DNA of 32,000 bases from Promethearchaeota archaeon (GTDB taxonomy: Archaea; Asgardarchaeota; Lokiarchaeia; Sigyniarchaeales; SOKP01): contig JAUWGH010000008.1 in NCBI GenBank assembly GCA_030606485.1, positions 1-32,000 on the forward strand, read 5' to 3'. A model generated the notes under the pieces. The model did no database searches. It had not been told where the DNA came from and worked only from the letters and a program-made list of their open reading frames with translations. The position numbers were made by a program, and so were the translations under genes. This document shows, one piece after another, positions 3,598 to 26,257 of this stretch (the first letter of the stretch is position 1; each line of letters starts with the position of its first letter).

Positions 3598-6508
3598 TCA
3601 CATCTTAATATCTTCACTTCTTACTACTTCAAGAATCTCAAAATGTAAATATAAATTATTAAATAATAAGAAGAGGAGCTTTCTAATATTTAATATATTG
3701 AATATATTAAATTTATTAAGATTTTTCATGGAAAAAGAAACTTAATATTAGTATAAACTATCTTTAAGAATCATCAATACTTAAAAAAAATATTTTAAAT
3801 AAATCCAAATATTTCTCCCATTCTTTAGTTAATTGGGGATATTTTTGTTTTAAATAATCTAATAAATTAACAACAGAATATAAAATAAGAGGATCAAACT
3901 CCCAAGCATGGTATTTGTTAAAAGTAATACATTTAATTTTTAAATCTGAAATTTGCAACATATTCCTAAGAATTAATCCATAAAAAGCGACCTGAGGTAA
4001 AGTGCGTAAAAAATTTCTATCTTTTTTTTTTTCTTCATCTGGTTTATAATCACAAGCGTAAATAATTCCATCATAATAAAAAAGAAAATCAATATGCCCA
4101 CTAATATATCTAAATCCTACATTATAATATTCTACATTTTGCCAGACAAGAACTTCTGTAGCAATAAGGTTTTTATCCCTTTTTAAAAAAAATTTTTGTA
4201 ATTTCTCGTGATAAATGTTTCCTTGGTTGCTAAAATTTTCAGCAAAATCTTCAAAAAATGAGATTTTATAGTAATTTTCAGCAAAATTTATAAAATCAAT
4301 CAATTTCTTTCCTAAAAAAGAATTATCTCCTTTAATAATTAATTTATTCTTTTCTAATTTGTTTATAAATGAATTAATATCTCCTTTTTTAAGTGGTTTA
4401 TTCCGATTATGAGAAATTTTGAAATCGGAACAACAAGGATTAATAATTTTAAACATTTCTTTATCGAAAGACTTATTTTCTATAATATCAAATAGCTTAC
4501 CCAATCTCTTAGCTAAATCTTGATTGGATATTCTAAATAAATTATCATAATTGCATCTAAACAATAGACGATGCCATCGATAAGGTTCATTAGTAAAGCC
4601 CACTTTAAATTTAGTTTCAAAAATATCCTCTAAATCCTCAATTATTTCTTTAACATAGCTGCCATGAGAAAATAAAGTATCGAATTTTTCCGCTAAATAA
4701 TTATATCCTATTAATGTATCATATTTAGTTTGGATTTTAATAGTTCTAATTAACTCAATCATCAAATAGAAATACTTTTCAAACAAGTTATTTGTTTCTG
4801 GATTATTAATTAAATAAAATAATCTCCCAAATTTTCGAATATTTACATCTTTAATGTCTCTTATTTTTAATAATAACATATTATCAAAAAAATCATAAAA
4901 TTTTTCTAATACTTCAGAATTATTTATTAAAAAACAATTATTATCTAATATTTGATAAATTTCGCGATATAATTGTTTTAAAATATGAAATGGAATCTGA
5001 ATAGAATGTATATCATCATCAACTAATATTCTTGCGTTGCTTGTATACCATCTTTCATAGCCATCTTCTCCATAAGCCAATAAGAATTCATATTCATTAA
5101 ATAAATTCCTTAAAAATTGGATTATTCTCCGCGGTCCTAAAATGTTTTTATACTGTTCATTTATTTTAGTATAACTGCCATACATCTCAAAAAGTTTTAA
5201 AATATTATAAGCGAATTCTTTTGAGTAATCAATTATAGCTTTTTCGGTATAACCAATAACATCTGAAAGAGTAAGATTATATTTTTCGATCTCATTTATA
5301 ATACTATCTTTTTGAATATCCCATGAAATTGGCTCAATTTCTGAGATTATTCTATATATATCTTCCTTTTTTTGTATTATTATCAAGTTTTGTGTATAAT
5401 ATTTCATAGATTTCTTATCTAAAGTCTCATAAGTTAAAATATTAGAAGAAATATTAATAGATTCAAATAATTTTTGCAAACCATTCAGAAAATCTTCTGT
5501 ATTTTGAAATTTTATTGATAATCTACCATCAAATTTATCAAGATATTCTCTAAAACTTATATTATAAACAGATGCACTATTAATTATCCCTATTAAACAT
5601 GAATATATTAATTCATCATTTTCAAAAATCCAATTTGGTATCTCTCTTGTCCTTGAAGATATATTATCAATATACACTCCTAATGTTAAAATTTCATAAA
5701 CAATAACGGTTCTATTAATAGTAAAGTTCGATGTCTCTCCATTATCATTATAATTTACTATAAATCCATTGTCTTCTGATATGTTAAAGAGATCCAGTAA
5801 CAATTCTTTCAAATAATTAACATATCTAATATCTTTATGATACTTTTTATTGCAATAAATTACTAAAGAATAATGTGTACTTCTTGATTTCTTAATATAA
5901 ATAGAAGCTTGTCCCAATAAAATACCTACAAATTCAGCAACCTTTTGAGATTTTTGTAAATTATATAAAACTAAATCATTCCTTCCTAAAACTTTCAAAT
6001 GAGGAATCTTACGATTAGATAGTTTTTGTAATTTATCAAAATGTTCCAACGATATTGAACTTCCTCTATAAATTGCATTACTCAATTTTAAAGTATGAAT
6101 AGTATAGTTATTATAAGGATGAAGATTTTTAATTTTCTTAAAAATTTGCGCTAAAAACTCTTTTTTAACTATAACCTTTTCATTACTAAAATTGTATTGA
6201 TCCCTTAAAATGAATTTTCCATCGTTAAATAAAGCGTTTAGTTCCTTTTCATTCTCATATAGGAAATCCATTTTTAATTACTTCAAATTCATTTTGTTTT
6301 TATAATAATTTTAAAATGAAGGAAATAATAAAAACAAAAACTCTCAGAAAATATAGTATAAAATAATATTTACGAATTTTATCTATTTCATTTTTTTGAT
6401 TATTTAGTGTTAATTAAACTCATTAAAATCCTTTATATCAGTGGAAAGTAATTGTTAACTTCATATATTATGACAATTATTTCTAATTATTTTAATACAA
6501 AATCACAT
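3598..6508. mobile_element. Candidate 2.9-kb insertion between thiolase and DUF35, flanked by a 6-bp direct repeat (TCACAT; ATGTGA on the coding strand)
   Basis: TCACAT occurs at 3598-3603 and 6503-6508. The right copy is the thiolase last codon plus stop; the left copy lies 5 nt before the DUF35 ATG. The only cargo is a nuclease-domain ORF. No terminal inverted repeats or transposase were seen. Confidence 0.45.
3764..6271 (-). CDS. Fusion of a degenerate LAGLIDADG-type DNA-binding domain, a helical linker and a C-terminal PD-(D/E)XK (RecB/Cas4-like) nuclease
   Basis: aa 112-122 AEFVGILLGQA and aa 225-234 CLIGIINSAS, preceded by 'IPNWIF', match the two LAGLIDADG helices but lack the catalytic Asp. 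The C-terminus has ATEV...GHIDFL...YACDYKP...LPQVAFY, i.e. E, D, DxK and QxxxY are intact. Confidence 0.8.
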   Translation of the reverse strand: MDFLYENEKELNALFNDGKFILRDQYNFSNEKVIVKKEFLAQIFKKIKNLHPYNNYTIHTLKLSNAIYRGSSISLEHFDKLQKLSNRKIPHLKVLGRNDLVLYNLQKSQKVAEFVGILLGQASIYIKKSRSTHYSLVIYCNKKYHKDIRYVNYLKELLLDLFNISEDNGFIVNYNDNGETSNFTINRTVIVYEILTLGVYIDNISSRTREIPNWIFENDELIYSCLIGIINSASVYNISFREYLDKFDGRLSIKFQNTEDFLNGLQKLFESINISSNILTYETLDKKSMKYYTQNLIIIQKKEDIYRIISEIEPISWDIQKDSIINEIEKYNLTLSDVIGYTEKAIIDYSKEFAYNILKLFEMYGSYTKINEQYKNILGPRRIIQFLRNLFNEYEFLLAYGEDGYERWYTSNARILVDDDIHSIQIPFHILKQLYREIYQILDNNCFLINNSEVLEKFYDFFDNMLLLKIRDIKDVNIRKFGRLFYLINNPETNNLFEKYFYLMIELIRTIKIQTKYDTLIGYNYLAEKFDTLFSHGSYVKEIIEDLEDIFETKFKVGFTNEPYRWHRLLFRCNYDNLFRISNQDLAKRLGKLFDIIENKSFDKEMFKIINPCCSDFKISHNRNKPLKKGDINSFINKLEKNKLIIKGDNSFLGKKLIDFINFAENYYKISFFEDFAENFSNQGNIYHEKLQKFFLKRDKNLIATEVLVWQNVEYYNVGFRYISGHIDFLFYYDGIIYACDYKPDEEKKKDRNFLRTLPQVAFYGLILRNMLQISDLKIKCITFNKYHAWEFDPLILYSVVNLLDYLKQKYPQLTKEWEKYLDLFKIFFLSIDDS

Positions 6509-7778: not shown

Positions 7779-8096
7779 ATAGTTAATTTTTGCCAGTATT
7801 GTGGAAAAAAATTAGATATAAATATTAGATTCTGCCCCGATTGTGGGTGGGAAATAAAAGAAGATTCAAATCCAAATTTTCAAACACAGTCAGTTCAAGC
7901 ATCACAAGCTGCTGATCTCTCTAATCCATATGAGATTGATAATCCAAATCCCCCATCTCAGCCAACATCACCACCAGTATATTCAGGAGTACATGGGGGA
8001 GATGATGATGTTGGATTAGCCGTTGGTGCTGCATTATTATTTGGTCGAGGTCATAGAATTTATCGTAGGAGAAGAAGAAGATCCATCTTTTTTTAA
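7779..8096 (+). CDS. Zinc-ribbon protein with Pro/Ser/Gln-rich linker and a hydrophobic plus poly-Arg C-terminal tail; non-canonical ATA start
   Basis: Not in the ORF track. (M)VNFCQYCGKKLDINIRFCPDCGWEIKE...NPNPPSQPTSPPVYSG...GLAVGAALLFGRGHRIYRRRRRRSIFF*, 105 aa. An in-frame TAA at 7773-7775 leaves ATA at 7779 as the only start upstream of the first CxxC. Confidence 0.75.
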   Translation: MVNFCQYCGKKLDINIRFCPDCGWEIKEDSNPNFQTQSVQASQAADLSNPYEIDNPNPPSQPTSPPVYSGVHGGDDDVGLAVGAALLFGRGHRIYRRRRRRSIFF

Positions 8097-8206: not shown

Positions 8207-11200
8207 ATGAAAAATCAAGGAGCCGAATCTAAAAAATCCACTTCAAAAACCAAAAAATTATCTAAATTTTTTAAAAAGATTCAAAATAAAATTTTAAGCA
8301 TTGATGAAAAAGCACTTTTAGAATTAGAAAGGATAAAAGCAATACCTTCCAAACCAATTTACAACTATTCAACTGAAAAAATTTCAATGGATTTAAATAC
8401 AAATGTTGAAGTGGGATTAAAACAGGACGAAATCAAAGAAAGAACTAAAGAATATGGTTTTAATGAGCTTCCAAAAATAAGAAAATCGATTTGGAAGGTA
8501 TATTTAGCGCCTATTTTTAATTTTTTAATTGTTATTTTGATTATTTCTGGAATAATTATTTTGATTTTGGGAGACCCAGCTTCTACATATATAACTTGGG
8601 GCGTAATTATAGCAAATTCATTAACTGCAATCATTCAGCAGTATAGAGCCCAAAAGGCGTTAGAGTCTTTGAAAAAAATCTCGGCATTAACTACAACTGT
8701 AATTCGAGATGGGACACAAATAGAAATAGAAACTCGAGAACTTGTTCCGGGTGATATAATAGTTATCAATCAAGGAGATAAAATTCCCGCAGATTCAAGA
8801 TTAATAGAAAGTATAAATTTATCAATCAATGAAGCACCATTAACTGGAGAAAGTGTTTCAATTGAAAAGAATGAAAATATTATCGAAAAAAAGGAGCTTC
8901 CCTTACAAAAACAGCTTAACATGGCATTTATGGGAACTTATGTTGCTACAGGAAGAGGGAAAGCAATAGTTGCCAGGACCGGAATAAGAACAGAAATTGG
9001 AAAAATCTCTCAAACCTTAAATGAGATGGGAAGTATAGAAGATATTCCATTAACAAGGAAAATGAATAATTTTGCTAAATGGTTAGTTATTATCGTATTT
9101 ATAAATCTCTCAATTTTGGTGATATATAAATTAAGCGTATTAGCACTACTTGATATTTTTACTTCTGAAAATATCAAAGGAGAATTAATTGCTGCAATAA
9201 TTAGATCTATGAATGTTATCCCTATAAATCTCCCTATTTTGACCACACTAGTTATGCTCACAGGAGTGCTTAATTTAGCAAAAACTGGTGTAATAATTCG
9301 AAACTTATCAGCAATAGAATCTATGGGTAGGATCTCAGTTATTTGTACAGATAAAACCGGAACAATCACAAAGAATGAAATGACTGTCATAAAATTTTGG
9401 TTTGACGATAAAATCTATGAAGTTTCGGGTGTTGGGTATGATAAAGAGGGAGAAATTAAAATTGATGGTCAACGAGCTAATTTTAATAAGAAAAATCATT
9501 TTGATTTTTTTATTACATCTATGGTTTTGAATAATATTTCTTCGATAATTGAAGAAGAGGTAAAAATAAAAGCAAAAAAAATGAAAACCAAAAGAATTAG
9601 ACGTGCTTTAGGGAGCCCGACGGAAGTTGCATTATTAGTATTGGCTGAAAAAGCTGGTTTTGATCTTAACAAATTAAAAGATGAATTTGAATATATTCAA
9701 GAATTTTCATTCGACTCTTCCGTTAAGAGAATGAGCACAATATATAAACCTAAAAGTAAGAAACAAAAAACATTTTATGCATTTGTAAAGGGTGCTTCTG
9801 AAATAATTGTGAAAAGATGCAATCAAATTGTATTGAATAAAAAAATTATATCATTAAATGATGATAAGCAATCAGAAATTTTGAATTCAATTAAGAAATA
9901 TGCAGAGAGTGGATATCGAACATTAAGTATTGCCTATAAAGAAATAGATAAACCTATAGCGAAAAATGAAAAATTTAATCGAGATGAAATTGAAATTAAT
10001 TTAGTGTTCTTAGGATTTGTAGTAATTTTAGATCCACCTCGTGAAGGAGTAATTGAGGCAGTTAAAAATTGTAAATCTGCAGGAATCGACGTGGTCATGA
10101 TCACAGGTGATCATCCAGCAACGGCCGAAGCAATAGCAAAAAATATTGACCTTTTTGATGAGGGTGATATCGTTGTTGAGGGAAAAAATATAGAGCTTTT
10201 ACCAATAGAAGATTTCAATAAAGTATCTGTTTTTGCGAGAGTGGTTCCATCTGATAAAGAAAAAATTATTAGTAGATACCAAGAACAAGATCGTATCGTA
10301 GCAATGACTGGAGATGGAATTAATGATTCTCTTGCACTTAAATTAGCTAATACTGGGATTGCAATGGGTATAACTGGGACTGATGTTGCAAAAGAAGTAT
10401 CTGATATGGTAATCTCTGATGACGATTTTATATCAATAGAAAAAGGAGTGAGAATTGGTCGTGGAATTTTTTCTAGAATTAGAGTAATAATATTTTTCTT
10501 CATTTGCATAAATATTGTGGAAGCGGTTTTCTTTTTTACTGCAGAATTTCTTCCTATTGAAGGATTTAAGTTGTTTAATAATTGGCAGCATATATATGTG
10601 TTTGCAATTGTCCATTCTTTCCCATCACTTGCTTTAGTAGTAGACAAAGTCCCAAAAGATATTATGAAAGAACCTCCAAAAAATGAGGAAGAAATATTAA
10701 ATAGGCAATTAATTATGTTATTAATTGTTCAAGCTGCTTTAATGGGTTTAGGATTTGCTTTATCATATTATTTAACGTTTTTTGGTGTAATACCTATAAA
10801 TGAGTTTAATTTGGATCCAAATCTGAGTTATATTTTGGCGCCCGAACTATATGGTTCAGATAGGTTAGTAATGCCAATGAGTTTAGCACACCAAAAAGCT
10901 AGAACTATGTGTATGACTGTATTATTTTTCTCTGAAACAACTTTTATTTGGAGTATACGACGTCCAAATAATTCATTCAAACAAAGTTTTGTCAATGAAT
11001 TCGACAAATATTTAATTAGTATGAGTATGTTTTGTGTTTTAATACACGTTTTATTTATAATATTTTCATATCCTGTCAATTATGCGATAAATGATGTTCT
11101 AGGTTTAAATTTTCAACTAAATTATATATTTTTAGGTCCAACAGATTGGATTTGGATCCTTGTTTTTGTTGCTCAAAGTGTTGTTGGAGTAGAACTTTTC

Positions 11201-11236
11201 AAATACTTTGCAAGAAAACGAAAAATATTTTTCTAA
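8207..11236 (+). CDS. P-type ATPase, P2A (SERCA/LMCA-like) scaffold with non-canonical transport site (paralog 1)
   Basis: LTGES, DKTGT (D382), KGASE, DPPR, MITGD, FARV and TGDGIND motifs; about 10 TM segments. M4 reads NVIPINLP; M6 reads YVFAIVHSFP. Confidence 0.95.
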   Translation: MKNQGAESKKSTSKTKKLSKFFKKIQNKILSIDEKALLELERIKAIPSKPIYNYSTEKISMDLNTNVEVGLKQDEIKERTKEYGFNELPKIRKSIWKVYLAPIFNFLIVILIISGIIILILGDPASTYITWGVIIANSLTAIIQQYRAQKALESLKKISALTTTVIRDGTQIEIETRELVPGDIIVINQGDKIPADSRLIESINLSINEAPLTGESVSIEKNENIIEKKELPLQKQLNMAFMGTYVATGRGKAIVARTGIRTEIGKISQTLNEMGSIEDIPLTRKMNNFAKWLVIIVFINLSILVIYKLSVLALLDIFTSENIKGELIAAIIRSMNVIPINLPILTTLVMLTGVLNLAKTGVIIRNLSAIESMGRISVICTDKTGTITKNEMTVIKFWFDDKIYEVSGVGYDKEGEIKIDGQRANFNKKNHFDFFITSMVLNNISSIIEEEVKIKAKKMKTKRIRRALGSPTEVALLVLAEKAGFDLNKLKDEFEYIQEFSFDSSVKRMSTIYKPKSKKQKTFYAFVKGASEIIVKRCNQIVLNKKIISLNDDKQSEILNSIKKYAESGYRTLSIAYKEIDKPIAKNEKFNRDEIEINLVFLGFVVILDPPREGVIEAVKNCKSAGIDVVMITGDHPATAEAIAKNIDLFDEGDIVVEGKNIELLPIEDFNKVSVFARVVPSDKEKIISRYQEQDRIVAMTGDGINDSLALKLANTGIAMGITGTDVAKEVSDMVISDDDFISIEKGVRIGRGIFSRIRVIIFFFICINIVEAVFFFTAEFLPIEGFKLFNNWQHIYVFAIVHSFPSLALVVDKVPKDIMKEPPKNEEEILNRQLIMLLIVQAALMGLGFALSYYLTFFGVIPINEFNLDPNLSYILAPELYGSDRLVMPMSLAHQKARTMCMTVLFFSETTFIWSIRRPNNSFKQSFVNEFDKYLISMSMFCVLIHVLFIIFSYPVNYAINDVLGLNFQLNYIFLGPTDWIWILVFVAQSVVGVELFKYFARKRKIFF

Positions 11237-11295
11237 TCAAAATTTTTAAAGTTTATTTATTATGTTGGTAGTAAGATAAAAAAAGTGAAATTTTA

Positions 11296-14181
11296 ATGAA
11301 CGATATTTATTATAACAAATCTATTCAAGAAATTCGTGAAGTTTTTCAAACTAATGAAAATGCTGGATTAACTGAGATTGAGGCTAAGAAAAGGCTCGAA
11401 TTATATGGATTAAATGAGATTCCTAAAGTTAAGAAATCTATTTTTAAAGTATATTTAGCACCTCTTTTCAATTGGCTTATAGTAATATATTTAGTAGGTG
11501 CTTTAATCCTATTTTTAGCTGTTGTATTTTTAGAAGAAGGAAATCTAGGAATAGTTTATTTAACTTTAGGAATTGTCGGAATGAATTGTGTCGTAGCAAT
11601 TGTTCAGCAATTTCGTGCTACAAAGAAGCTTGAAGCATTAAGACAATTATCTGCACCTACCACTGTTGTTATGAGAGATAGTGAAAAGAAACAAATACCC
11701 ACAAATAATGTTGTTCCAGGCGATTTATTAGTTTTAAATCAAGGAGATAGAATTCCGGCAGATGCTAGGATTATTGAATCCTCAAATTTATTGGTTAATG
11801 AATCTAGTCTAACGGGGGAGAGTGAGCCAGTAAAAAAATTAGAGAAAGGAACAGCTCTTAGTGAGGAAAAAATTCCTATTTCAGAACGGAAAAATATGAT
11901 GTTCTACGGAACATTTATTGCAACAGGAAATGGTAAAGCAATAACAGTTAGGACTGGTGGCAATACTGAAATTGGTAAAATCTCACATTTAATGGAAGAA
12001 GCAGGAACAAGTGAAATTCCTATAAGAGAAAAGATGAATAACTTTGGAAAATGGCTAGGATTAGCAGTTTTGATATTCTGGTTCGGAACGTTTATGATTA
12101 AATGGATTGCGAGTGGATTTACAACTTTTGAAATAGTAGATAGTTTAAACTCGGCAATGGACATAATGCCTATTAACATACCTCTACTTACAACGATTGT
12201 ATTATTAACTGGAGTTTTATTTATGGCTCAAAAAGGAGTTGTAATTCGAAATCTTGCCTCAGTTGATAGCTTAGGGAGAGTAAGCGTTGTATGTTCAGAT
12301 AAGACTGGGACTTTAACTAAAAACCAAATGTGTGTGCAATATATTTGGGTAAATGGTTCAATATTTAAAATTTCTGGAAGTGGCTATAATCCAGAAGGAG
12401 ACATCATTTTGATGGACGATATAAAGAATCCTAAAATTATTAAAAATGTAGAAAAATATCCTCAGTTGAAACTATTGCTGATTTCAGGGTTTCTTAATAA
12501 TAATTCAGCTTTAGTTAAAAAAGAGATTAAAACTGCCACAAAAGGTCAAAAATTTATTAATAAATATGATATAATTGGCTCGCCAACTGAAGGAGCCCTT
12601 AATGTATTATATCAAAAATCCATACAAGATTATAATGTTGATGAAGAGTTTAAATTCGTAAGAGAATACCCATTTGATTCTTCAATAAAAAGAATGACTA
12701 AAATATATAAAAAAGAAAAAGAATTTTACTCATTTACGAAAGGGGCAACCGAAGTTTTGATTCCGCAATGTAAACGAGTTTTATATCATAATAAAGAAGT
12801 TGATCTATCTGAAGACTTGAAACAGGAGATTCTGAATAATGTTAATAAATATGCAAACATGGGATACAGGATATTGAGTCTATGTTATAAAAAAATAGAC
12901 ATCCTATCTGAAAATCTCGAGGAAAGTAGAGAAAATTGCGAAAAAGATATGATTTATATTGGATTTGTTACAATTTTAGATCCTCCAAGAGAAGGTGTAA
13001 AAGAATCTGTTGAATTATGCAACAATGCTGGAGTAGAAGTTATAATGATAACTGGAGATTCCTCAAATACTGCAAAAGCGATTGCATCTCAAATAGCAAT
13101 CTTATCTGAAGGAGAAGTAGTAATAGAAGGGAGTCAAATAAAATCAATTGAATCATTTGAAGAATTGAATAAAATAAGAGTCTTCGCCAGAGTATCTCCT
13201 GAACACAAACAAGATATTGTTGAAAAATATCAAGATCAGAAGAAAGTTGTTGCGATGACAGGAGATGGAGTTAATGACGCATTAGCTTTAAATATGGCAG
13301 ATGCAGGTATTGCAATGGGAATACAAGGAACTGATGTTGCGAAAGAAGCGTCTGATATGGTAATTTCTGATGATTCTTTCATTTCTATTGTTGAAGGAAT
13401 TCGAGAGGGCCGAGGAATTTTTACAAGAATTCGAACAATAGCATTTTTTTTCATATGTATAAATTTATTTGAAGGTATTTTTCAATTTATTTTATTTGCC
13501 ATTCTAGGAATGCCATATTTCCTAACGGAAGAATATTTCTTACAATGGATATTCTTGTCAATTACTATTCATACTTTCCCAGGTCTGGTTTTGACTTTCG
13601 ATACTACATCTAAAGACATAATGAAAGAGAAACCTCGTGATTCCGAAGAAATTTTAAATAAAAATGTTATTATATTACTTCTAATATTTGGTGGATTACT
13701 TGCGATTAGTATGGGAGTTGTTTATTCTATTTGTATTACAGGAATATATGGCGTTTTTCCATTGAATTATGAATTTAATATTCTAAATGCTGGTTATCTT
13801 TTCACAACTGAAACAATGTTTTTGACTCCAGGTATTGATTTAAACGTTACTAAGACACTTACTATGCTAATGACCACATTATTTTTCTCTGAAACAATTT
13901 TAGTTCTACAAATAAGACGCCCTAATAAATCTTTAATAAAAAGTATAAAAGAAGAAAGTAATAAAAGAATGTATTTAATTCTAGGCTTTCTATTTGCTGT
14001 ATTTCTATTATTAATGTATTTTCCCGGATTTCAAGTAGGCTTAGCACATATCGGGATTAATTTCATGTTTATGTATCTAACCGCATTAGATTGGCTAATT
14101 TGTTTCTTAATTTCATCAATAACAATTGTAGGTTTTGAACTAGTAAAGTATTACGCCCGAAAAAAAGAAATTTACTTATAA
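11296..14181 (+). CDS. P-type ATPase, P2A scaffold with non-canonical transport site (paralog 2)
   Basis: LTGES, DKTGT (D335), KGATE, DPPR, MITGD, FARV and TGDGVND motifs. M4 reads DIMPINIP; M6 reads FLSITIHTFP. It is colinear with paralog 1, with a 59-nt spacer. Confidence 0.95.
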   Translation: MNDIYYNKSIQEIREVFQTNENAGLTEIEAKKRLELYGLNEIPKVKKSIFKVYLAPLFNWLIVIYLVGALILFLAVVFLEEGNLGIVYLTLGIVGMNCVVAIVQQFRATKKLEALRQLSAPTTVVMRDSEKKQIPTNNVVPGDLLVLNQGDRIPADARIIESSNLLVNESSLTGESEPVKKLEKGTALSEEKIPISERKNMMFYGTFIATGNGKAITVRTGGNTEIGKISHLMEEAGTSEIPIREKMNNFGKWLGLAVLIFWFGTFMIKWIASGFTTFEIVDSLNSAMDIMPINIPLLTTIVLLTGVLFMAQKGVVIRNLASVDSLGRVSVVCSDKTGTLTKNQMCVQYIWVNGSIFKISGSGYNPEGDIILMDDIKNPKIIKNVEKYPQLKLLLISGFLNNNSALVKKEIKTATKGQKFINKYDIIGSPTEGALNVLYQKSIQDYNVDEEFKFVREYPFDSSIKRMTKIYKKEKEFYSFTKGATEVLIPQCKRVLYHNKEVDLSEDLKQEILNNVNKYANMGYRILSLCYKKIDILSENLEESRENCEKDMIYIGFVTILDPPREGVKESVELCNNAGVEVIMITGDSSNTAKAIASQIAILSEGEVVIEGSQIKSIESFEELNKIRVFARVSPEHKQDIVEKYQDQKKVVAMTGDGVNDALALNMADAGIAMGIQGTDVAKEASDMVISDDSFISIVEGIREGRGIFTRIRTIAFFFICINLFEGIFQFILFAILGMPYFLTEEYFLQWIFLSITIHTFPGLVLTFDTTSKDIMKEKPRDSEEILNKNVIILLLIFGGLLAISMGVVYSICITGIYGVFPLNYEFNILNAGYLFTTETMFLTPGIDLNVTKTLTMLMTTLFFSETILVLQIRRPNKSLIKSIKEESNKRMYLILGFLFAVFLLLMYFPGFQVGLAHIGINFMFMYLTALDWLICFLISSITIVGFELVKYYARKKEIYL

Positions 14182-14228: not shown

Positions 14229-14339
14229 ATGGGAAAAGTTCGTTTTCACGACTTTATTATAGTAATCTTTTTGTTTTGCTTTTCTATTCTTGGTTTGCTG
14301 TGGCTTTATGTTCAAATATATTATGGCTTAAAATTTTAA
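14229..14339 (+). CDS. 36-aa single-TM micropeptide, candidate ATPase accessory/regulatory subunit
   Basis: Not in the ORF track. MGKVRFHDFIIVIFLFCFSILGLLWLYVQIYYGLKF*, with an ATG start, 47 nt after the paralog 2 stop and 20 nt before the next gene, on the same strand. Confidence 0.5.
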   Translation: MGKVRFHDFIIVIFLFCFSILGLLWLYVQIYYGLKF

Positions 14340-14359: not shown

Positions 14360-14950
14360 ATGAAAGAATTAAATAAACTAACAGAAATTGAAAATCAAAG
14401 TTTTCCAGTAATATCAAATAAAGTTCTAAATAAAATTGTAAATTATTACGGCTTTGGATTTTTCTTTATCTTAATCTTAGTAGGGCTATTAGCTTTTTTT
14501 ACATCTAATTTTGAAGTCGTATTTAATACTACATTTTTATCATTATTGTTGATTTCTTTAACATTCTTAACTAAATTTGAAAATGCCTTTTTAAATTCTA
14601 TGCTTTCTTTATCATTTTGCTGGTTCCTATCAATGTGTACTTTACTTATACCTATAATAGATGATTTGATGTCATTTTTTAGAGATTTTCTATTACATTT
14701 TATTATTGCATTATTTCAGTTATTTTTAATAGTATCCTTAAAGATTAAATTTTCAAAACAAGCTTTATATTGGAGTAGTATTTTTTGGATGTGTTGGGTT
14801 TTTCTTTATGATGACTTATATCGAATGTATTTAATGTTAAATATTGATGCTCCAATAATTGCTGTTCAAATCTTTTTATTTTATTCATTATTTCTTTCAG
14901 TTTTTATATTTGTATTCATTAAAAAGAAGTTTAATTTACTTTTACCTTAA
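14360..14950 (+). CDS. Hypothetical polytopic membrane protein (about 5-6 TM)
   Basis: 196-aa ORF with alternating long hydrophobic segments, co-oriented with the ATPases. No family recognised. Confidence 0.7.
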   Translation: MKELNKLTEIENQSFPVISNKVLNKIVNYYGFGFFFILILVGLLAFFTSNFEVVFNTTFLSLLLISLTFLTKFENAFLNSMLSLSFCWFLSMCTLLIPIIDDLMSFFRDFLLHFIIALFQLFLIVSLKIKFSKQALYWSSIFWMCWVFLYDDLYRMYLMLNIDAPIIAVQIFLFYSLFLSVFIFVFIKKKFNLLLP

Positions 14951-15078: not shown

Positions 15079-16125
15079 ATGAAGTTTGGATTTCATATTC
15101 CCGTACCAACGCCTAGAATCACCTATATGTTTGCGGGAACTAAAAAAGCTGAAGAATGTGGATTTGATTCTGTTTTTTATGCAGATCACACAGCTATGTT
15201 ACCGCCAGGACCAGGTATTTGCTTTGATGCTTTTAGTTTTTTATCGGCATTGGCAGTGATAACGAATAAGGTTTCTTTATGTACCGGAGTTTCTGATTGT
15301 CATCGTTTCCATCCTGCTCTAATGGCTCATAAAGTGGCTACCTTAGACCATATTAGCAATGGTAGAGCTATGTTTGGTATTGGAGCTGGTGAGGCGATGA
15401 ATATTGACATGTATGGAATGAATCGAAAAAGATCCTTAACTAAATTGAGAGAATATATAATTCTAATGAGAGATTTTTGGACTAAAAGAAAAGTTAATGC
15501 AAAAAGTGAATTCTGGGGAGAGATGAAAAAGGCTTATATTCAAATAAAACCGATTCAAAAAAGCCCACCAATTTACATCGCTGGAAATGGTCCGAAAACT
15601 CGCCAATTGACTGGAGAATTAGGAGATGGATGGTATCCACTTTATCAACCTCCTTGGGTATATAAAAAAAATCAAGAGAGAGTGGCTGATGCTGCAAAGA
15701 AAGCTGGTCGGGATCCTTTGGAGATTGATTATGTATATGATTGTTTTGTGGCAATCGATGATAAAAATCCGGAAAATGCAATTAAAAGGTGCGAATTCTT
15801 TAAGGTATCTTACTTACTCAATACTTCAATACTCAATGAAGCTTATCCAAATATAAATTTATCCAGTGATTTAACAATTCATAATTTTGATATGAGCAGT
15901 GAGGGTGCAATGGAGTTATTAAAATATTTAGACCAACTACCCAAAACTATTCTTCAAGATTTTAATTGCTTGGGCACAACAGATGATGTTATAGCAAGCA
16001 TAGAGAGATATAAAGAAGCCGGAGCAACACATTTGACAATTATGAATCGAGGGCCAGATGTGAACATAGTCTATGAAATCTTTAGAGACAAAATTATTCC
16101 CTATTTTAAAGATTTAGAAAAATAA
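15079..16125 (+). CDS. LLM-class (luciferase-like) flavin/F420-dependent oxidoreductase
   Basis: AEECGFDSVFYADH, KVATLDHISNGRAMFGIGAG, PPIYIAGNGPKTRQLTGELGDGW and CLGTTDDVIASIERYKEAGATH. Confidence 0.9.
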   Translation: MKFGFHIPVPTPRITYMFAGTKKAEECGFDSVFYADHTAMLPPGPGICFDAFSFLSALAVITNKVSLCTGVSDCHRFHPALMAHKVATLDHISNGRAMFGIGAGEAMNIDMYGMNRKRSLTKLREYIILMRDFWTKRKVNAKSEFWGEMKKAYIQIKPIQKSPPIYIAGNGPKTRQLTGELGDGWYPLYQPPWVYKKNQERVADAAKKAGRDPLEIDYVYDCFVAIDDKNPENAIKRCEFFKVSYLLNTSILNEAYPNINLSSDLTIHNFDMSSEGAMELLKYLDQLPKTILQDFNCLGTTDDVIASIERYKEAGATHLTIMNRGPDVNIVYEIFRDKIIPYFKDLEK

Positions 16126-16295
16126 TTCGTTTTTCTTTTTTTTGAATGAGTTGAAATAAGGACTTTAATTAAATCAAAATAAAAAATTTGTGAAAATATT
16201 TTATAAATTAAAATCAATTAAGTTTTTTATTGATTTTTAAATATAGAGAATTGAGATAATTTAAGATAGAGAAAATTTGGAAGAAATCATTAAAG

Positions 16296-16793
16296 ATGGC
16301 TACCAAAAACGAATCAAAAAATAATTGGGATTTTTTCAATCGAATAATTACAGATGTTGATGAAAACTGGAATATTATCCAATGTATTAGTTGTGGGAAG
16401 TGTGTTGGTGATTGTCCAGCGAGTAAAATCTCGGATTTTAATATTCGGAAAATAGTTGAAAAAGTTTTGATTGGAGATGAGTCAATTTTAAAAGAAGAAG
16501 ACATATGGTATTGCTTTTTATGTAACAAGTGTTCAAAAATTTGCCCCAAAGAGGGTATTAATATACCTTTATTTATCTTATCACTTAGAAATGAAGCTTT
16601 TAAAAAAGGATATAATATTCCTCAATTGAAGAAATATGTTAAAATGTGTAAAAGGTTTTTAGAAAATGGTACTGTAATGAAAGAATCTGATTTACCTACT
16701 GAAAGAATTGAAGAGATAAAAAAGATCTGTGAATTTGCGAGAATCAAATATCTTCATAAAGCAAGCAAAAAAAATATTGGAATTGAAGAGTAA
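16296..16793 (+). CDS. hdrC: Heterodisulfide reductase subunit C-like 2x[4Fe-4S] protein
   Basis: CISCGKCVGDCP and IWYCFLCNKCSKICP; lies directly upstream of an HdrB-like gene. Confidence 0.85.
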   Translation: MATKNESKNNWDFFNRIITDVDENWNIIQCISCGKCVGDCPASKISDFNIRKIVEKVLIGDESILKEEDIWYCFLCNKCSKICPKEGINIPLFILSLRNEAFKKGYNIPQLKKYVKMCKRFLENGTVMKESDLPTERIEEIKKICEFARIKYLHKASKKNIGIEE

Positions 16794-16816
16794 ATATTGG
16801 AGTTTCGATCAAAAAG

Positions 16817-17779
16817 ATGGAGGGTTATATTAAATCAGTTGTTTTGGATACAGATGAGATTTTACAAACTTATAATGATAATCCTTTAGATTTTTTTAAA
16901 GATAAGAAAATATGTTTATTTAAAGCATGTTTAGAATATTATTATCCCGGGATAAGAACTTGTTTAAAATCGATGTTAGAAGACTTTGATCTACAAGTTT
17001 CTACATCTTTGGAGCAATCTTGCTGTTCTGGAACTTTTCTCCAGAGAAATTTAATAACTAGAGCTCAGTTCGCCGCAATTAATGAGAGGAATATTGTATC
17101 TATAAATGAAATAGCAGATATATTGATTGTTTCTTGTAATGGTTGTTACCTTTCGTTATTAAGAGGACGTAAATTTTTAAATTCGAAAGATATAAGGGAA
17201 AAAACAACTAAAATTTTAAAAGAATTTAAAAAAGATATCTTATTCTCTCCAAAATTGAAAATAGTTCATATCTTAGATTTCCTACATTTAATTAGAGAAC
17301 AAATTGGAGAAAGATTAAAATATTCATTAAATGGGTTAAAATGTGCTGTACATTATGGATGTCATTATCTTAATTTATTATTAGATAAAAAAGATATCCA
17401 TAGTTTTATTGCCCCCAAAAATAAATTAGAAGATATTTTAACTATTTTGGGTGGTTCTATTATAGAGTATCAAGAACGAGATTCATGCTGCGGGTGGGGA
17501 GCATCTCAAAACGTAATACATCGAGACGAAGCACTTCAAATTACTTTTAATAAATTAAAAAGTGCAGAAAGTGCTGGAGCTGAATTATTAGTTACTAATT
17601 GCCCAACTTGTCTTTATTCTCTTAATAAATTCAGGGATGATATGAAAGATCTTTTCGGTGAGTCTCCACAAATACCAGCGGTTCATATAAATGAGTTAAT
17701 TGGAGTTCTTATGGAATATGAGTGCGATAAATATTGTATTGAGAGAATATTACCCCTTATTGAAGAATTAAAAATATAA
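16817..17779 (+). CDS. hdrB: Heterodisulfide reductase subunit B-like CCG-domain protein
   Basis: Two CCG domains: C...YPGI / QSCCSG / SCNGC and VHYGCH / SCCGWG / NCPTC. Confidence 0.85.
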   Translation: MEGYIKSVVLDTDEILQTYNDNPLDFFKDKKICLFKACLEYYYPGIRTCLKSMLEDFDLQVSTSLEQSCCSGTFLQRNLITRAQFAAINERNIVSINEIADILIVSCNGCYLSLLRGRKFLNSKDIREKTTKILKEFKKDILFSPKLKIVHILDFLHLIREQIGERLKYSLNGLKCAVHYGCHYLNLLLDKKDIHSFIAPKNKLEDILTILGGSIIEYQERDSCCGWGASQNVIHRDEALQITFNKLKSAESAGAELLVTNCPTCLYSLNKFRDDMKDLFGESPQIPAVHINELIGVLMEYECDKYCIERILPLIEELKI

Positions 17780-17796
17780 CTTCTTTTCCCATTTAT

Positions 17797-18576
17797 CTAA
17801 ACAATTTGAGAGAAAATTTTATTAGCTTGTTGATACACAACATTATTTGATGGTAATTCAAGTAATGATTTACCGCTTAAATTGAACTTTTGAATTTCAC
17901 CATCATAGCTAAGGAATCCAAGCAATTTCATGTGATTCCCTAAATTTTTTTCAAAACTTTCTATGAATAGGTTTTTGTTTTTTCCATTAAATCGATTACC
18001 CAAGACCCATATATTTTTAAAGTCTAAACTAACTTCATCTTTCACTTCAAGAATTCTCTGTAAAGTGTGAAAACTCATTTTACTTGGGTCAGTAACTAAA
18101 ATCAAATCATCTACATCTATAGAAGTTTTTCTCGCGAAAAATTCTAAACCAGCTGGTGAGTCAATAATAGTAATTTTATAATTTTCAGCTAAAATCTTTA
18201 TCAAATGTTTTAAAATATTGTTAATAGAACAGTAGCATCCTTCCCCCTCAGATCTCCCTTGAATTATAAGGTCAAAATTATTAAATGTAATAATATGTCT
18301 AAATACTTCTTCCTCTACTAATGATTTTTCCGATAAATATGGAGGTATTTCTTTTCTTTCTAATTTTCTACCTAATTCTGTGATTACCCCAGCAATTGTA
18401 TCTCTAAAATTAGTTTGTTTATTTATTAGATCTGAGATATTAGCATCTGGATCTGCATCTATCACAAGGGTTTTTTGTTTCGGAAATTTAGAGATTAAAT
18501 ATTTTAAAAAAAGAATTGCGAGAGTTGATTTTCCAACACCACCCTTCCCTGCAAAACAAATTATTTTTTTATAAAT
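17797..18576 (-). CDS. cooC: CooC/AcsF-type nickel-insertion ATPase (MinD/ParA family)
   Basis: The frame extends upstream of the track's GTG (18465) through Walker A AGKGGVGKST, then VIDADP, GRSEGEGCYC (CxC metal motif) and IIDSPAGLEFF. There is no in-frame ATG/GTG/TTG before Walker A, so the start is placed at ATT 18576 (uncertain). Confidence 0.85.
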   Translation of the reverse strand: MYKKIICFAGKGGVGKSTLAILFLKYLISKFPKQKTLVIDADPDANISDLINKQTNFRDTIAGVITELGRKLERKEIPPYLSEKSLVEEEVFRHIITFNNFDLIIQGRSEGEGCYCSINNILKHLIKILAENYKITIIDSPAGLEFFARKTSIDVDDLILVTDPSKMSFHTLQRILEVKDEVSLDFKNIWVLGNRFNGKNKNLFIESFEKNLGNHMKLLGFLSYDGEIQKFNLSGKSLLELPSNNVVYQQANKIFSQIV

Positions 18577-18658
18577 TGCAATACCCTTTTTTTATTCTAT
18601 AATTAAATCGAATAAAATCAAAGAATTAAATAATATAATTAAGCGTAAGTTAAAAAAT

Positions 18659-19054
18659 TTAAGTCTCTTTAATTGCATTTCTTGGACAAGAATCAAGGCA
18701 TATAAGGCAACCAATACATTTTTCCTTAGTAAATTCTAATTCATAGTTGTTAGTAAAATGTAATGCTCCAGTGGGGCATAATGATATGCAAGCACCGCAA
18801 TCAATACAAAGTTCATTATCTACACAAACTGTACTTTTTCGTTCTACAGAAATACCTTCACTTTTAAAAGCTTCATTAACTTGATTCAATTTTTCAGAAG
18901 GAACATCGATGATCAAAGTTATTCCTTTTGGTGTTGTAGAAAATTTAAGAATATCAAATGAAATATTCATTTTCACAACATCTTGTAAGATTTTTGCATA
19001 ATCCTTAATACTGTCAATTATTCTGACAGGTATATTAATATTTATAATAGTCAT
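18659..19054 (-). CDS. NIL-domain ferredoxin (MJ0099/MA1822-like), partner of homocysteine synthase
   Basis: N-terminal NIL-like alpha/beta domain plus CIDCGACISLCP and CIGCLICLDSCP. Overlaps the DUF39 gene by 4 nt. Confidence 0.85.
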   Translation of the reverse strand: MTIININIPVRIIDSIKDYAKILQDVVKMNISFDILKFSTTPKGITLIIDVPSEKLNQVNEAFKSEGISVERKSTVCVDNELCIDCGACISLCPTGALHFTNNYELEFTKEKCIGCLICLDSCPRNAIKET

Positions 19055-25103: not shown

Positions 25104-26135
25104 TTATAATTTTACAATTTTACCTTTTTTATCGAGGAATATAGCGATTATAGTTATGAGAGCAATCATTAGTATGCCCACTAGCAAATCCATTTCATAT
25201 CCTATTATATCCGAAATCAAGAATTCAAGAAGGATAGCTATAATATAAATAAGGAAAGGGCTCTTTCCATAACTGTCTAAGACTATTATTGGTTTTTGCA
25301 ATTTTTTATCAATGCCAATAAATATAAATGAAAGTAAAATCGAAACTCCCATGCTTATTATGATATAAGTTAATGTAACTTGGCGTTTATTAGCGTACCA
25401 CTCTGGAATAAGTGATATTAATAAACCTCCTATGAAACAAATAACGCCTACAATAACATAAATTTGATATTTTTTCTTCTCAGTGTAATCTTCTTTTAAG
25501 ATTAATATTTCACCCAGACAAGTTGCATAGATCATAAGTACTGAGAATCCAAAAATAGTTCCTAAGATTCCCCCATGAACAGATGCAATTGCATATTCTC
25601 GCCATCCGAAGTATAACATAATTTGATAAAAAATTAATATTCCCGAAGCTATAATAGCTCGAATTCTAGGACTTAACCAAAGAAAAGGTAAAGCAATAAA
25701 ACCTACAAGTCCCAATGATGGAAGAACATCCCATACAACTATAATCATACCATCTTCTATTTTAATAAAACTCCCTTGATCAATAAGAATTACAAGCAAT
25801 CCGAGGGCCAATATAACACCATATCGTATAAAAATATGGCTAACTGCTTTTTTAACACCATCCCTCTCTTTTCGGTGGAAAAATGAAACCGGCATAAGTA
25901 ATCCCATAATGAATATAAAAGCAGGGGCGCCTACATCGTAAAAATTCATCATTGTTGTTGTTCTTTGGTTTTCAGGATGCGCAAGAAAAAATCGTGCTGC
26001 CTCACGAATAGCAATTGGAAGAAATTCGGTTACAACTAACAAGATCATTATAAACCCTCTTGCATGATCTATCCAATATAATCTTTTGGATGCTTTTTCT
26101 TTCAATTCTGATGCTACTTCTTTTGATTCTGACAT
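25104..26135 (-). CDS. Heparan-alpha-glucosaminide N-acetyltransferase-like (HGSNAT/DUF1624/DUF5009) membrane acyltransferase
   Basis: RLYWIDHARGFIMILLV, FYDVGAPAFIFIMG, HIFIRYGVILALG and YGKSPFLIYI motifs; about 10 TM. Confidence 0.8.
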   Translation of the reverse strand: MSESKEVASELKEKASKRLYWIDHARGFIMILLVVTEFLPIAIREAARFFLAHPENQRTTTMMNFYDVGAPAFIFIMGLLMPVSFFHRKERDGVKKAVSHIFIRYGVILALGLLVILIDQGSFIKIEDGMIIVVWDVLPSLGLVGFIALPFLWLSPRIRAIIASGILIFYQIMLYFGWREYAIASVHGGILGTIFGFSVLMIYATCLGEILILKEDYTEKKKYQIYVIVGVICFIGGLLISLIPEWYANKRQVTLTYIIISMGVSILLSFIFIGIDKKLQKPIIVLDSYGKSPFLIYIIAILLEFLISDIIGYEMDLLVGILMIALITIIAIFLDKKGKIVKL

Positions 26136-26257
26136 ATTTATTCAGCAAAATTTTTTTTAATTAATTAATTCCTAATTTAAAATTTTTATATTTTAGATTA
26201 GTGTTAAAAACATATTTAAACTTTAGAAGTTCTATTTGGAAAATTTATTATTCGCAT

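What the first reader, a model, noticed from the sequence alone, without database searches (positions are those of the whole stretch)
8207..14181. Tandem P2A-scaffold P-type ATPases whose M4 motif is PINLP/PINIP, reminiscent of the lipid-flippase PISL motif
Seen: both paralogs keep TGES, DKTGT and TGDGxND, so they look catalytically intact. The M4 motif that is PEGLP in Ca2+ pumps reads N-V-I-P-I-N-L-P (nt 9212-9235) and D-I-M-P-I-N-I-P (nt 12160-12183). The Ile (I340, I293) lies exactly 42 residues before the phosphorylated Asp (D382, D335), the same spacing as SERCA E309 to D351. Known: E309 is the gating Ca2+ ligand. An Ile at this position, in N-L-I-P-I-S-L, is the hallmark of P4-ATPase phospholipid flippases (I364 of bovine ATP8A2), which are regarded as eukaryote-specific. 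Inference: these are not Ca2+ pumps. They may be an undescribed archaeal subfamily that moves a lipid or other non-metal substrate, either a parallel or precursor-like route to flippase activity. Retention in both diverged paralogs argues against sequencing error or drift.
Basis: partly seen in the sequence, partly recalled or inferred. Interest (0 to 1): 0.9.

Follow-up and report, generated by a model that had tools for sequence, protein, structure and literature searches.

The report
Asgard-wide rewired P-type ATPase pair
Two neighbouring ion-pump genes belong to a previously undescribed, Asgard-archaea-wide branch of P-type ATPases whose transport site has been rebuilt, so they are probably not ordinary calcium pumps as annotated, but nothing supports the idea that they are lipid flippases.

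Summary
Both ORFs (8207-11236, 11296-14181) keep TGES, DKTGT and TGDGxND, read PINLP/PINIP in M4, and place the Ile 42 residues before the phospho-Asp.

The Ile is not the conserved feature. In 220 relatives that position is I/L/F/V/W. The conserved set is the next residue Asn (218/220), a His replacing the M6 Ca-binding Asp, and retained M5 Asn..Glu and M8 Glu.

The proteins form one clade (100% support). It lies outside sampled prokaryotic P2A/P2B-like/P2C-like pumps and outside P3A/P3B. It occurs in 287 of 400 Asgard species genomes, usually as a conserved A-then-B tandem pair.

The flippase reading fails every testable criterion. The A-domain motif is TGES, not DGET. There is no M5 Lys. 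P4-model scores equal those of ordinary Ca pumps. Structural and sequence similarity rank P2, then P3, then P4/P5. Genuine Asgard P3A proton pumps also have a hydrophobic residue (IPVALP) at this position.

Best reading: a new subfamily of cation/proton pumps with a rewired single site and unknown ion.

First-stage readers of this scan flagged the same family on other genomes. I found no published description.

The parts
8207..11236 (+). A-type P-type ATPase gene (P0001, 1009 aa), upstream member of the conserved pair
   Evidence: ORF and translation. Full P2-like Pfam architecture. A-type clade with 99-100% support.
11296..14181 (+). B-type P-type ATPase gene (P0002, 961 aa), downstream member of the pair
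   Evidence: ORF and translation. Orthologs at 65-70% identity across Asgard lineages. AF2 model with pLDDT 84.5.
11237..11295 (+). 59-bp A/T-rich spacer between the two genes
   Evidence: Sequence. Whether the genes are co-transcribed or B has its own promoter was not resolved.
9212..9235 (+). A-type M4 motif N-V-I-P-I-N-L-P (N336, P339, I340, N341)
   Evidence: Asn at -3 from the Pro is A-type specific (10/11).
12160..12183 (+). B-type M4 motif D-I-M-P-I-N-I-P (D289, P292, I293, N294)
   Evidence: D289 is invariant in 131/131 B-type orthologs. M4 is unwound at 289-294 in the model.
10613..10615 (+). A-type M6 His803, at the position of the SERCA Asp800 / LMCA1 M6 Asp
13570..13572 (+). B-type M6 His759, aligned by HMMER to the Asp of LMCA1 LVNDSLP
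   Evidence: His is present in all M6-covering family rows and co-occurs almost perfectly with loss of the M4 Glu (that set was defined by these two features).
10511..10522 (+). A-type M5 Asn769 .. Glu772 (retained cation-site N..E)
13462..13473 (+). B-type M5 Asn723 .. Glu726
   Evidence: Glu 220/220 and Asn 188/220.
10934..10936 (+). A-type M8 Glu910
13891..13893 (+). B-type M8 Glu866
   Evidence: 214/220 in the family against E/Q mixed in canonical pumps.
9350..9352 (+). A-type phosphorylated Asp382 (DKTGT)
12298..12300 (+). B-type phosphorylated Asp335 (DKTGT)

Best explanation
The two genes are the A and B members of a conserved tandem pair. They belong to a distinct, Asgard-wide clade of P-type ATPases that branched off near the P2/P3 split.

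Shown: they keep all the E1/E2 catalytic machinery, so they should hydrolyse ATP through an aspartyl-phosphate intermediate. Their transport site has been rebuilt. The Ca2+ site-II ligands are gone: the M4 Glu is now I/L/F/V/W, the M6 Asn is now Y/F/S, and the M6 Asp is now His. The acidic residues of the M1/M2 entry funnel are neutralised. A compact polar cluster remains at the site-I position: M5 Asn and Glu, M8 Glu, the new M6 His, the new M4 Asn, and in B-type an invariant M4 Asp289 plus Thr757.

Inferred: each protein is a primary pump for a small cation or proton at a single rewired site. The His would act either as a ligand or as a built-in counter-ion, as described for P1B-4 pumps. A and B differ in site polarity (Asp289/Thr757 against Asn/Ile), so they probably differ in ion or stoichiometry.

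My split for the transported species: H+ about 30%; a transition or other divalent metal (Mn/Fe/Co/Ni/Zn/Mg) about 30%; Ca2+ at a remodelled site about 10-15%; other for the remainder. They are not P4-type lipid flippases.
For: Catalytic motifs and domain architecture are intact, and the generic P-type model is passed at 260-285 bits against a 62.3 cutoff.

All subfamily equivalog cutoffs are failed. The ranking of models is the same as for canonical P2A controls.

The exhaustive search switches sharply from P-x-N-x-P with M6 His to PEGLP with NLVTDGLP.

Across 220 family sequences: N294 218, E726 220, E866 214. Among 347 aligned sequences there is no Glu+His combination.

The clade has 100% SH-aLRT support. 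It lies outside the P2A/P2B-like/P2C-like clade (96) and outside P3A+P3B (96), rooted on P1B.

The family is found in 287/400 Asgard genomes, 70/90 high-quality genomes and 63/85 genera. A lies directly upstream of B in 26 of 30 genomes checked and in Loki, Hermod and Thor contigs.

The AF2 model has pLDDT 84.5 with M4 unwound at the motif. The best structural matches are all P2 pumps.

Family-specific loss of funnel acids and bulkier pocket residues is shown. Paralog-specific site differences are shown.

His as an internal counter-ion in P1B-4 is reported in PMC10654040.
Against: No biochemical data exist and the ion cannot be read from sequence.

A hydrophobic residue at the gating position also occurs in P4 and P5 pumps, which move bulky substrates.

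Some Asgard genomes carry genuine P3A proton pumps alongside the pair. That weakens the H+ sub-hypothesis.

This genome already has two CPC heavy-metal pumps and a canonical PEGL pair, so no obvious ion is left unserved.

That the conserved polar residues converge on one pocket rests on homology to SERCA, not on measured distances.

The tree used a quick search with LG+G4 and lacks eukaryotic P2, P4 and P5 references.
Confidence: 0.7

Rival explanations
1. First reader's idea. The pumps move a lipid head group or another bulky non-metal substrate (for example a polyamine). They would use the hydrophobic M4 residue as a gate, as a parallel or precursor route to P4/P5-type activity.
For: The M4 gating Glu is replaced by a hydrophobic residue and followed by a polar residue (Asn, where P4 has Ser). 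A-type reads N-x-I-P-I-N-L, locally like the P4 N-x-I-P-I-S-L. Acidic residues of the cation entry funnel are neutralised to Asn/Gln/Ser/Thr. In one Lokiarchaeial genome a VTT/DedA-domain gene sits between A and B. A GNAT acetyltransferase follows B in three lineages.
Against: The A-domain motif is TGES, not DGET. M5 keeps N..E and lacks the Lys that is essential in P4. Invariant buried Glu residues in M5 and M8, plus Asp289 in B-type, are typical of cation sites. The Ile varies. P4 and P5 HMM scores are no higher than for ordinary PEGLP pumps. Structure-based identity is 17-20% to P4/P5 against 26-30% to P2. Asgard P3A pumps also have a hydrophobic residue at this position. The pocket becomes bulkier, not roomier. 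VTT and GNAT are absent from this window.
Confidence: 0.1
2. They are Ca2+ (or Ca2+/Mn2+) efflux pumps as currently annotated. The site would be relocated to a site-I-like position and built from M5 Asn/Glu and M8 Glu, plus M4 Asp289 and Thr757 in B-type.
For: Database names are 'Ca2+-transporting ATPase'. The closest solved relatives are LMCA1, SPCA1 and SERCA. SERCA site-I residues N768, E771 and E908 are retained. B-type has three carboxylates in the pocket. The Asgard transporter census treats a universal Asgard P-type ATPase as a putative Ca2+ pump (PMC7997004).
Against: All known single-site Ca2+ pumps keep site II (M4 Glu plus M6 Asn/Asp), and that is exactly what is lost here. His is a poor Ca2+ ligand. 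All Ca-pump equivalog cutoffs are failed by a wide margin. The same genome has a separate canonical PEGL pair that can serve Ca2+. A-type has fewer oxygen ligands.
Confidence: 0.12
3. A and B act as an obligate heteromer or as a sensor/regulator pair rather than two independent pumps. One partner might have lost transport and act as a transceptor.
For: The strict A-then-B adjacency and order is kept across Loki-, Hermod- and Thorarchaeial genomes despite only 44% identity between the paralogs.
Against: Both paralogs retain every catalytic motif and the same core site residues. P-type ATPases normally work as single catalytic chains. Tandem pairs of PEGL and P3A genes also occur in Asgard genomes, so tandem duplication may simply be common here. 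Many Asgard genomes outside this class showed only one hit at the strict threshold.
Confidence: 0.08

Closest known systems
P2A Ca2+-ATPases (LMCA1 of Listeria, SPCA1, SERCA)
   Same: Same five-domain Pfam architecture and the same TGES/DKTGT/TGDGxND motifs. Best sequence matches (E about 1e-123 to 1e-130) and best structural matches (TM 0.6-0.76; Z 28-30). M5 N..E and M8 Glu are retained.
   Different: M4 PEGLP becomes P-[ILFVW]-N-[ILF]-P. M6 N..TD becomes [YFS]..[VLI]H. The M1/M2 funnel acids are neutralised. Equivalog cutoffs are failed (433-463 bits against 703-798). The clade lies outside the sampled P2 crown.
P3A plasma-membrane-type H+-ATPases (AHA2/Pma1; archaeal homologs)
   Same: A hydrophobic residue at the SERCA Glu309 position; Asgard P3A read IPVALP. 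A single small site is expected. Structural Z 28.9 to AHA2.
   Different: P3A keeps the M6 Asp as proton acceptor, paired with an M5 Arg (own knowledge, and PMC10654040). Here M6 has His and M5/M8 have Glu. TIGR01647 scores 323-341 against a 615 cutoff. It is a separate clade.
P4 ATPase phospholipid flippases (ATP8A2, Drs2p, Neo1p)
   Same: No Glu in M4; Ile is often next to the conserved Pro and is followed by a polar residue. Same overall P-type fold (Z 24-27).
   Different: TGES instead of DGET. No M5 Lys. Buried carboxylates are kept. The second Pro of the M4 motif is kept. TIGR01652 scores 103-111 against a 431 cutoff, no better than ordinary Ca pumps. Identity is 17-19%. No Cdc50 was detected.
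P6 ATPases (mycobacterial CtpE)
   Same: A prokaryotic P2-like lineage in which the universally conserved M6 Asp has been replaced (PMC10654040).
   Different: CtpE keeps PEGL in M4 and has Ile in M6. This family loses the M4 Glu and has His in M6.
P1B-4 metal pumps (CoaT-type)
   Same: A membrane-embedded His reported to act as internal counter-ion (PMC10654040).
   Different: P1B topology, an SPC-type M4 motif and heavy-metal-pump architecture. Only distant homology (Z about 21-22).

Membership tests
P-type ATPase superfamily (HAD-IC) | DKTGT phosphorylation motif, TGES, TGDGxND, and a score above the generic model cutoff | tested here: met
   All motifs are present in both proteins. TIGR01494 scores 260.6 and 285.1 bits against a 62.3 cutoff.
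P2A Ca2+-ATPase (SERCA/PMR1/LMCA1 type) | M4 PEGL(P) with the gating/ligand Glu | tested here: not met
   The motifs read PINLP and PINIP. I293 aligns to the Glu of LMCA1 PEAL.
P2A Ca2+-ATPase (SERCA/PMR1/LMCA1 type) | M6 Asn...Thr-Asp ligands (NLVTDGLP) | tested here: not met
   A reads FAIVHSFP and B reads SITIHTFP. His aligns to the Asp.
P2A Ca2+-ATPase (SERCA/PMR1/LMCA1 type) | Curated equivalog score (TIGR01116 703.4; TIGR01522 798.3) | tested here: not met
   Scores are 433-463 bits. Canonical controls score 685-778.
P2A Ca2+-ATPase (SERCA/PMR1/LMCA1 type) | Branches within the P2 crown group | tested here: not met
   The clade (100) lies outside the P2A/P2B-like/P2C-like clade (96) in a P1B-rooted tree. 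This was a quick search with no eukaryotic references.
P2A Ca2+-ATPase (SERCA/PMR1/LMCA1 type) | Ca2+-dependent phosphorylation and transport | not testable with these tools
   Needs biochemistry.
P4 ATPase (lipid flippase) | A-domain DGET dephosphorylation motif (own knowledge of the family) | tested here: not met
   TGES is at residues 213 and 173.
P4 ATPase (lipid flippase) | Strictly conserved M4 P-I-S-L with the gate Ile | tested here: not met
   The sequence is P-I-N-[LI]-P. Across 220 relatives the Ile position is I147 L35 F31 V4 W2 M1. The Ser position is Asn, and the second Pro is kept.
P4 ATPase (lipid flippase) | Conserved M5 Lys essential for flipping (PMC5732287) | tested here: not met
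   M5 reads ..C-I-N-x-x-E.. as in cation pumps, with no Lys.
P4 ATPase (lipid flippase) | Score on the P4 family model TIGR01652 (cutoff 431.25) | tested here: not met
   The two proteins score 102.9 and 110.6 bits. Ordinary PEGLP pumps score 91-120. Nothing in the genome exceeds the cutoff.
P4 ATPase (lipid flippase) | Cdc50 beta subunit (P4A/P4C only) | tested here: inconclusive
   PF03381 was not found in the genome, but no control genome rang either. P4B pumps lack it anyway.
P4 ATPase (lipid flippase) | Lipid-stimulated dephosphorylation and lipid flipping | not testable with these tools
   Needs biochemistry.
P3A H+-ATPase | M6 Asp proton acceptor and a score above TIGR01647 (615.5) | tested here: not met
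   M6 has His. Scores are 322.8 and 340.8 bits. It is a separate clade from genuine Asgard P3A.
P6 ATPase (CtpE type) | PEGL kept in M4 with the M6 Asp replaced by Ile (PMC10654040) | tested here: not met
   The M4 Glu is lost and M6 has His.

The most novel reading that the evidence does not exclude
The Asgard-wide PxNxP/His clade is the closest prokaryotic relative of the eukaryote-only P4 and/or P5 pumps. On this reading it already handles a non-metal substrate (a lipid head group or a polyamine), so the shift from ion pumping to 'giant substrate' transport began in the archaeal ancestor of eukaryotes. My trees lack P4/P5 references and no biochemistry exists, so this is not excluded. Every indirect test (HMM scores, structural identity, retained carboxylates) argues against it.
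Probability: 0.06. Interest if true: 0.9.

Novelty: new variant of a known kind. Interest (0 to 1): 0.58.

Why it matters
P-type ATPase classification currently stops at P1-P6, and more prokaryotic families are explicitly expected (PMC10654040). This clade fits that expectation. It is monophyletic and lies outside the sampled P2 and P3 lineages. It carries a coupled rewiring of the transport site (M4 Glu-Gly to hydrophobic-Asn, M6 Asp to His).

The clade is a near-core gene pair of Asgard archaea, the closest prokaryotic relatives of eukaryotes. It is annotated everywhere as a 'Ca2+-transporting ATPase'. A published Asgard transporter census used a universal putative Ca2+-ATPase to argue for eukaryote-like Ca2+ signalling (PMC7997004). 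If that universal gene is this family, the inference needs re-examination.

The sharply defined residue set gives a direct mutational and biochemical path to a new ion specificity, or to a new coupling mechanism with a built-in His counter-ion. The residues are N294, H759, E726 and E866, plus the A/B switch at position 289.

Tried and rejected
1. Expression. No run on record as RNA holds the stretch. Two runs labelled RNA-Seq (X19, X20) are flagged as probably DNA and give only scattered low-depth contigs. Two true metatranscriptomes of the source study laid nothing. This says nothing about expression either way.

2. Cdc50 search. Nothing was found, but no positive control rang.

3. Gene context as a functional clue.
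- The ~321-aa gene upstream of the pair in other genomes is a TFB-like zinc-ribbon protein. Its homolog here is on contig C3.
- The GNAT acetyltransferase and luciferase-like genes downstream are conserved in Loki, Hermod and Thor contigs. GNAT is absent from this window.
- The VTT/DedA gene between A and B was seen in one genome only.
- None of these fixes a substrate.

4. Measuring distances between N294, H759, E726 and E866 in the AF2 model was not possible, because the coordinates are not exposed to the Python box.

5. A tree including eukaryotic P2, P4 and P5 references was not built. No tool gave me such sequences and I did not type any from memory.

6. The Saier-lab 2010 census of uncharacterised prokaryotic families (FUPA; Chan et al., J Mol Microbiol Biotechnol 19:5) is not held in the library, so I could not check it. 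It predates Asgard genomes.

7. A literature search for the plant P3A motif string returned only noise. I used Asgard P3A sequences instead.

8. Complex prediction for an A-B heteromer was not run. The two chains exceed the size limit and no contact domain is known.

9. VIA-align listed no family closer than P2. Absence of other families from that list is not evidence.
Full report
OBSERVATION

The window holds two head-to-tail ORFs on the + strand, separated by 59 bp.
- A is 8207-11236 (P0001, 1009 aa).
- B is 11296-14181 (P0002, 961 aa).
- They are 44% identical over their whole length.

- TGES is at 213/173, DKTGT at 382/335 and TGDGxND at 701/655.
- N-V-I-P-I-N-L-P is at nt 9212-9235 and D-I-M-P-I-N-I-P at nt 12160-12183.
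- The Ile lies 42 residues before the phosphorylated Asp in both.

Both proteins have the full Cation_ATPase_N / E1-E2 / Cation_ATPase / Hydrolase / Cation_ATPase_C architecture.

WHAT IS ACTUALLY CONSERVED

An exhaustive HMMER search of 1.84 billion representatives, followed by alignment, shows an abrupt switch.
- The top ~45 clusters (1086 down to about 500 bits) carry P-[ILFVW]-N-[ILF]-[PVI] in M4, with few exceptions, together with a His in M6.
- Below them, all hits carry canonical PEGLP plus NLVTDGLP.

HMMER's own alignment to the Listeria Ca2+-ATPase puts I293 opposite the Glu of PEAL and H759 opposite the Asp of LVNDSLP.

I took the family as sequences with M6 His and no M4 Glu, so those two features are circular. 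Across the resulting 220 sequences:
- the adjacent Asn is present in 218;
- the M5 Glu is present in 220 and the M5 Asn in 188;
- the M8 Glu is present in 214;
- the 'flippase-like' position itself is I147, L35, F31, V4, W2, M1.

Of 347 aligned sequences, 220 are (non-Glu, His), 118 are (Glu, Asp) and 9 are odd variants. None combines Glu with His. The conserved signature is therefore a coupled change: M4 Glu-Gly to hydrophobic-Asn, and M6 Asp to His. The Ile is not the conserved element.

A family-versus-canonical scan adds further differences.
- The M6 Asn796-equivalent becomes Y/F/S and the Thr799-equivalent becomes V/L/I.
- The M1/M2 funnel acids are neutralised (Gln to Pro56, Asp to Asn59, Asp to Q/T/S86, Glu to Gln105).
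- There is a family-specific Lys853.
- Pocket-lining residues become bulkier and more aromatic.

The paralogs differ consistently.
- B-type (n=131) has an invariant Asp289 three residues before the Pro, Thr757 (130/131), and S/T/A at 755.
- A-type (n=11) has Asn, Ile and Phe/Tyr at these positions.

FAMILY PLACEMENT

Both proteins pass only the generic P-type model and fail every subfamily equivalog cutoff.

| Model | Score (bits) | Cutoff |
|---|---|---|
| PMR1/SERCA (P2A) | 433-463 | 703-798 |
| P3A | 323-341 | 615 |
| P5 | 239-266 | 618 |
| P4 | 103-111 | 431 |

Canonical PEGLP controls give the same ranking of models and the same P4 scores of 91-120 bits. The family is therefore no closer to P4 or P5 than any bacterial Ca2+ pump.

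An AlphaFold2 model of B was built from a 55-sequence family alignment. It has pLDDT 84.5 and pTM 0.77, and it shows M4 unwound at residues 289-294.
- The Foldseek top 50 are all P2 pumps.
- The Foldseek-independent search gives the following ranking.

| Class | Z | Structure-based identity |
|---|---|---|
| P2 (PfATP4, SPCA1, LMCA1, SERCA, PMCA, H/K) | 27-32 | 26-30% |
| P3 (AHA2, MgtA) | about 29 | 22-23% |
| P4/P5 | 24-27 | 17-20% |
| P1 | 21-23 | 20-22% |

For a rooted tree I obtained genuine Asgard P3A and P3B genes by family search. The genome's own CPC pumps served as outgroup.
- The PxNxP/His proteins form one clade with 100% SH-aLRT support.
- That clade lies outside the clade uniting P2A, P2B-like and P2C-like pumps (96) and outside P3A+P3B (96). 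The order of the three lineages is unresolved.
- A-type and B-type are separate, well-supported subclades, so the duplication is old.
- Caveats: this was a quick IQ-TREE search with LG+G4. The P2B/P2C labels come from motifs. No eukaryotic P2, P4 or P5 references were available.

DISTRIBUTION AND GENE ORDER

- All named sequences bearing the signature are Asgard: Loki, Thor, Odin, Hod, Hermod, Heimdall, Hel, Ranarchaeia, Harpocratesius and Lokiarchaeum ossiferum. The Bathyarchaeia and Firmicutes hits are canonical pumps.
- At E <= 1e-180, the family is found in 287 of 400 species genomes of the phylum, 70 of 90 high-quality genomes and 63 of 85 genera.
- A-type orthologs at E <= 1e-230 occur in 119 of 161 genomes of the class.
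- I compared coordinates for the first 30 non-genus A hits. In 26, A lies directly upstream of B on the same strand, with gaps of about 0.1-1.2 kb. In the other 4 the genes are on different contigs.
- The same order is seen in Loki, Hermod and Thor contigs.
- The window's genome (3.75 Mb, 100% complete) has six P-type ATPases: two CPC pumps, a near-identical PEGL tandem pair on contig C10, and this pair. The pair therefore adds to canonical pumps rather than replacing them.
- The organism recurs in cold-seep and marine-sediment metagenomes from about ten studies.

THE FLIPPASE HYPOTHESIS

Every P4 criterion that could be tested fails.
- The A-domain motif is TGES rather than DGET.
- The Ile varies and the Ser position is Asn.
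- There is no M5 Lys, which is essential in ATP8A2 (PMC5732287).
- Invariant buried carboxylates are retained.
- The P4 model score is far below cutoff and equal to the controls.
- No genomic hit exceeds the P4 cutoff.

The premise that a hydrophobic residue at this position is a P4 hallmark is also wrong. Asgard genes that pass the P3A equivalog cutoff read I-P-V-A-L-P.

Palmgren's 2023 review confirms that P4 is regarded as eukaryote-only. It lists only P1-P6 and expects more prokaryotic families. Its P6 (CtpE) is the converse case: PEGL is kept and the M6 Asp is replaced by Ile.

MECHANISM

Shown: intact catalytic machinery, destruction of site II, neutralisation of the entry funnel, and retention of a compact polar cluster at the site-I position.

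Inferred: a single-site pump for a proton or a small cation. His would act as a ligand or as a built-in counter-ion, as reported for P1B-4 pumps. A and B would differ in ion or stoichiometry because of the Asp289/Thr757 against Asn/Ile switch.

The ion cannot be deduced.
- H+ is plausible, but several Asgard genomes also carry P3A pumps.
- A transition or other divalent metal is plausible from the His/Glu/Glu/Asn chemistry.
- Ca2+ at a remodelled site cannot be excluded for B-type.

LITERATURE AND EARLIER NOTES

Searches found no description of this family. The Asgard transporter census counts a universal 'putative Ca2+ ATPase' (PMC7997004).

Earlier first-stage notes of this scan flagged the same motifs and tandem arrangement in this and several other genomes. 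I had already found the M6 His and the family boundary independently, and I tested those claims here.

VERDICT

This is a real, strongly conserved, apparently undescribed subfamily of P-type ATPases with a rewired transport site, present as a conserved gene pair across Asgard archaea. The substrate is unknown. The flippase analogy is not supported.

Noticed in passing
G000 contig C10:897546-903566 (loci L015, L016): A second tandem pair of P-type ATPases in the same genome. They are near-identical to each other, read PEGLV/PEGLI in M4, and score 580-605 bits on the P2A models, below cutoff. Tandem P3A pairs also occur in other Asgard genomes (for example G262:C74:960-5784, G267:C49:4805-9607, G270:C10:14205-19042). 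P-type ATPase genes in Asgard often come as tandem pairs.
   Followed up: partly
window 14229-14339 (+): A 36-codon ORF immediately after gene B, encoding a single hydrophobic helix. It is reminiscent of small single-TM regulators of P-type ATPases. It does not occupy this position in L001, L003 or L004, where a GNAT gene follows B. Conservation within the genus was not checked.
   Followed up: no
window 14360-14950 (+): A 196-aa polytopic membrane ORF (P0123) with no Pfam match. It sits where other lineages have a GNAT acetyltransferase.
   Followed up: partly
window ~7790-8096 (+): A short unlisted ORF upstream of gene A. It has a CxxC...CxxC zinc ribbon, a Pro/Ser-rich linker, a C-terminal hydrophobic anchor and an Arg-rich tail.
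   Followed up: no
window 8207-8360 (+): Gene A has a Lys-rich N-terminal extension of about 50 residues. It is conserved within the genus (88-96% identity over the full length) but absent from A-type orthologs of other genera, which align from about residue 45-50.
   Followed up: partly
L001:8904-9806 (Lokiarchaeial assembly GCA_019058395.1): A 300-aa VTT/DedA-domain membrane protein is encoded between the A and B genes in this genome. Several other genomes have 0.7-1.2 kb gaps between A and B that could hold a similar gene. The homologs in the window's genome lie elsewhere (C13, C8).
   Followed up: partly
window 25104-29514: A cluster of membrane lipid/glycan genes more than 11 kb from the pumps: Acyl_transf_3, GT87 glycosyltransferase, PAP2 phosphatase and a PEMT/ICMT-type methyltransferase.
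   Followed up: no
window 3764-6271 (-): An 835-aa ORF with no Pfam match, in the lowest-GC stretch of the window (0.232) with strong negative GC skew.
   Followed up: no
window 15079-20529: A luciferase-like monooxygenase, syntenic with the pump pair in Hermod and Thor contigs. It is followed by an HdrC/HdrB-like Fer4 + CCG pair, a MinD/ParA-like ATPase, a ferredoxin, and an HcyBio + CBS homocysteine-synthesis gene.
   Followed up: partly
window 29931-31961 (-): An N6 DNA methylase of the Eco57I/MmeI type, probably a type IIG/IIL restriction-modification enzyme, running to the window edge.
   Followed up: no
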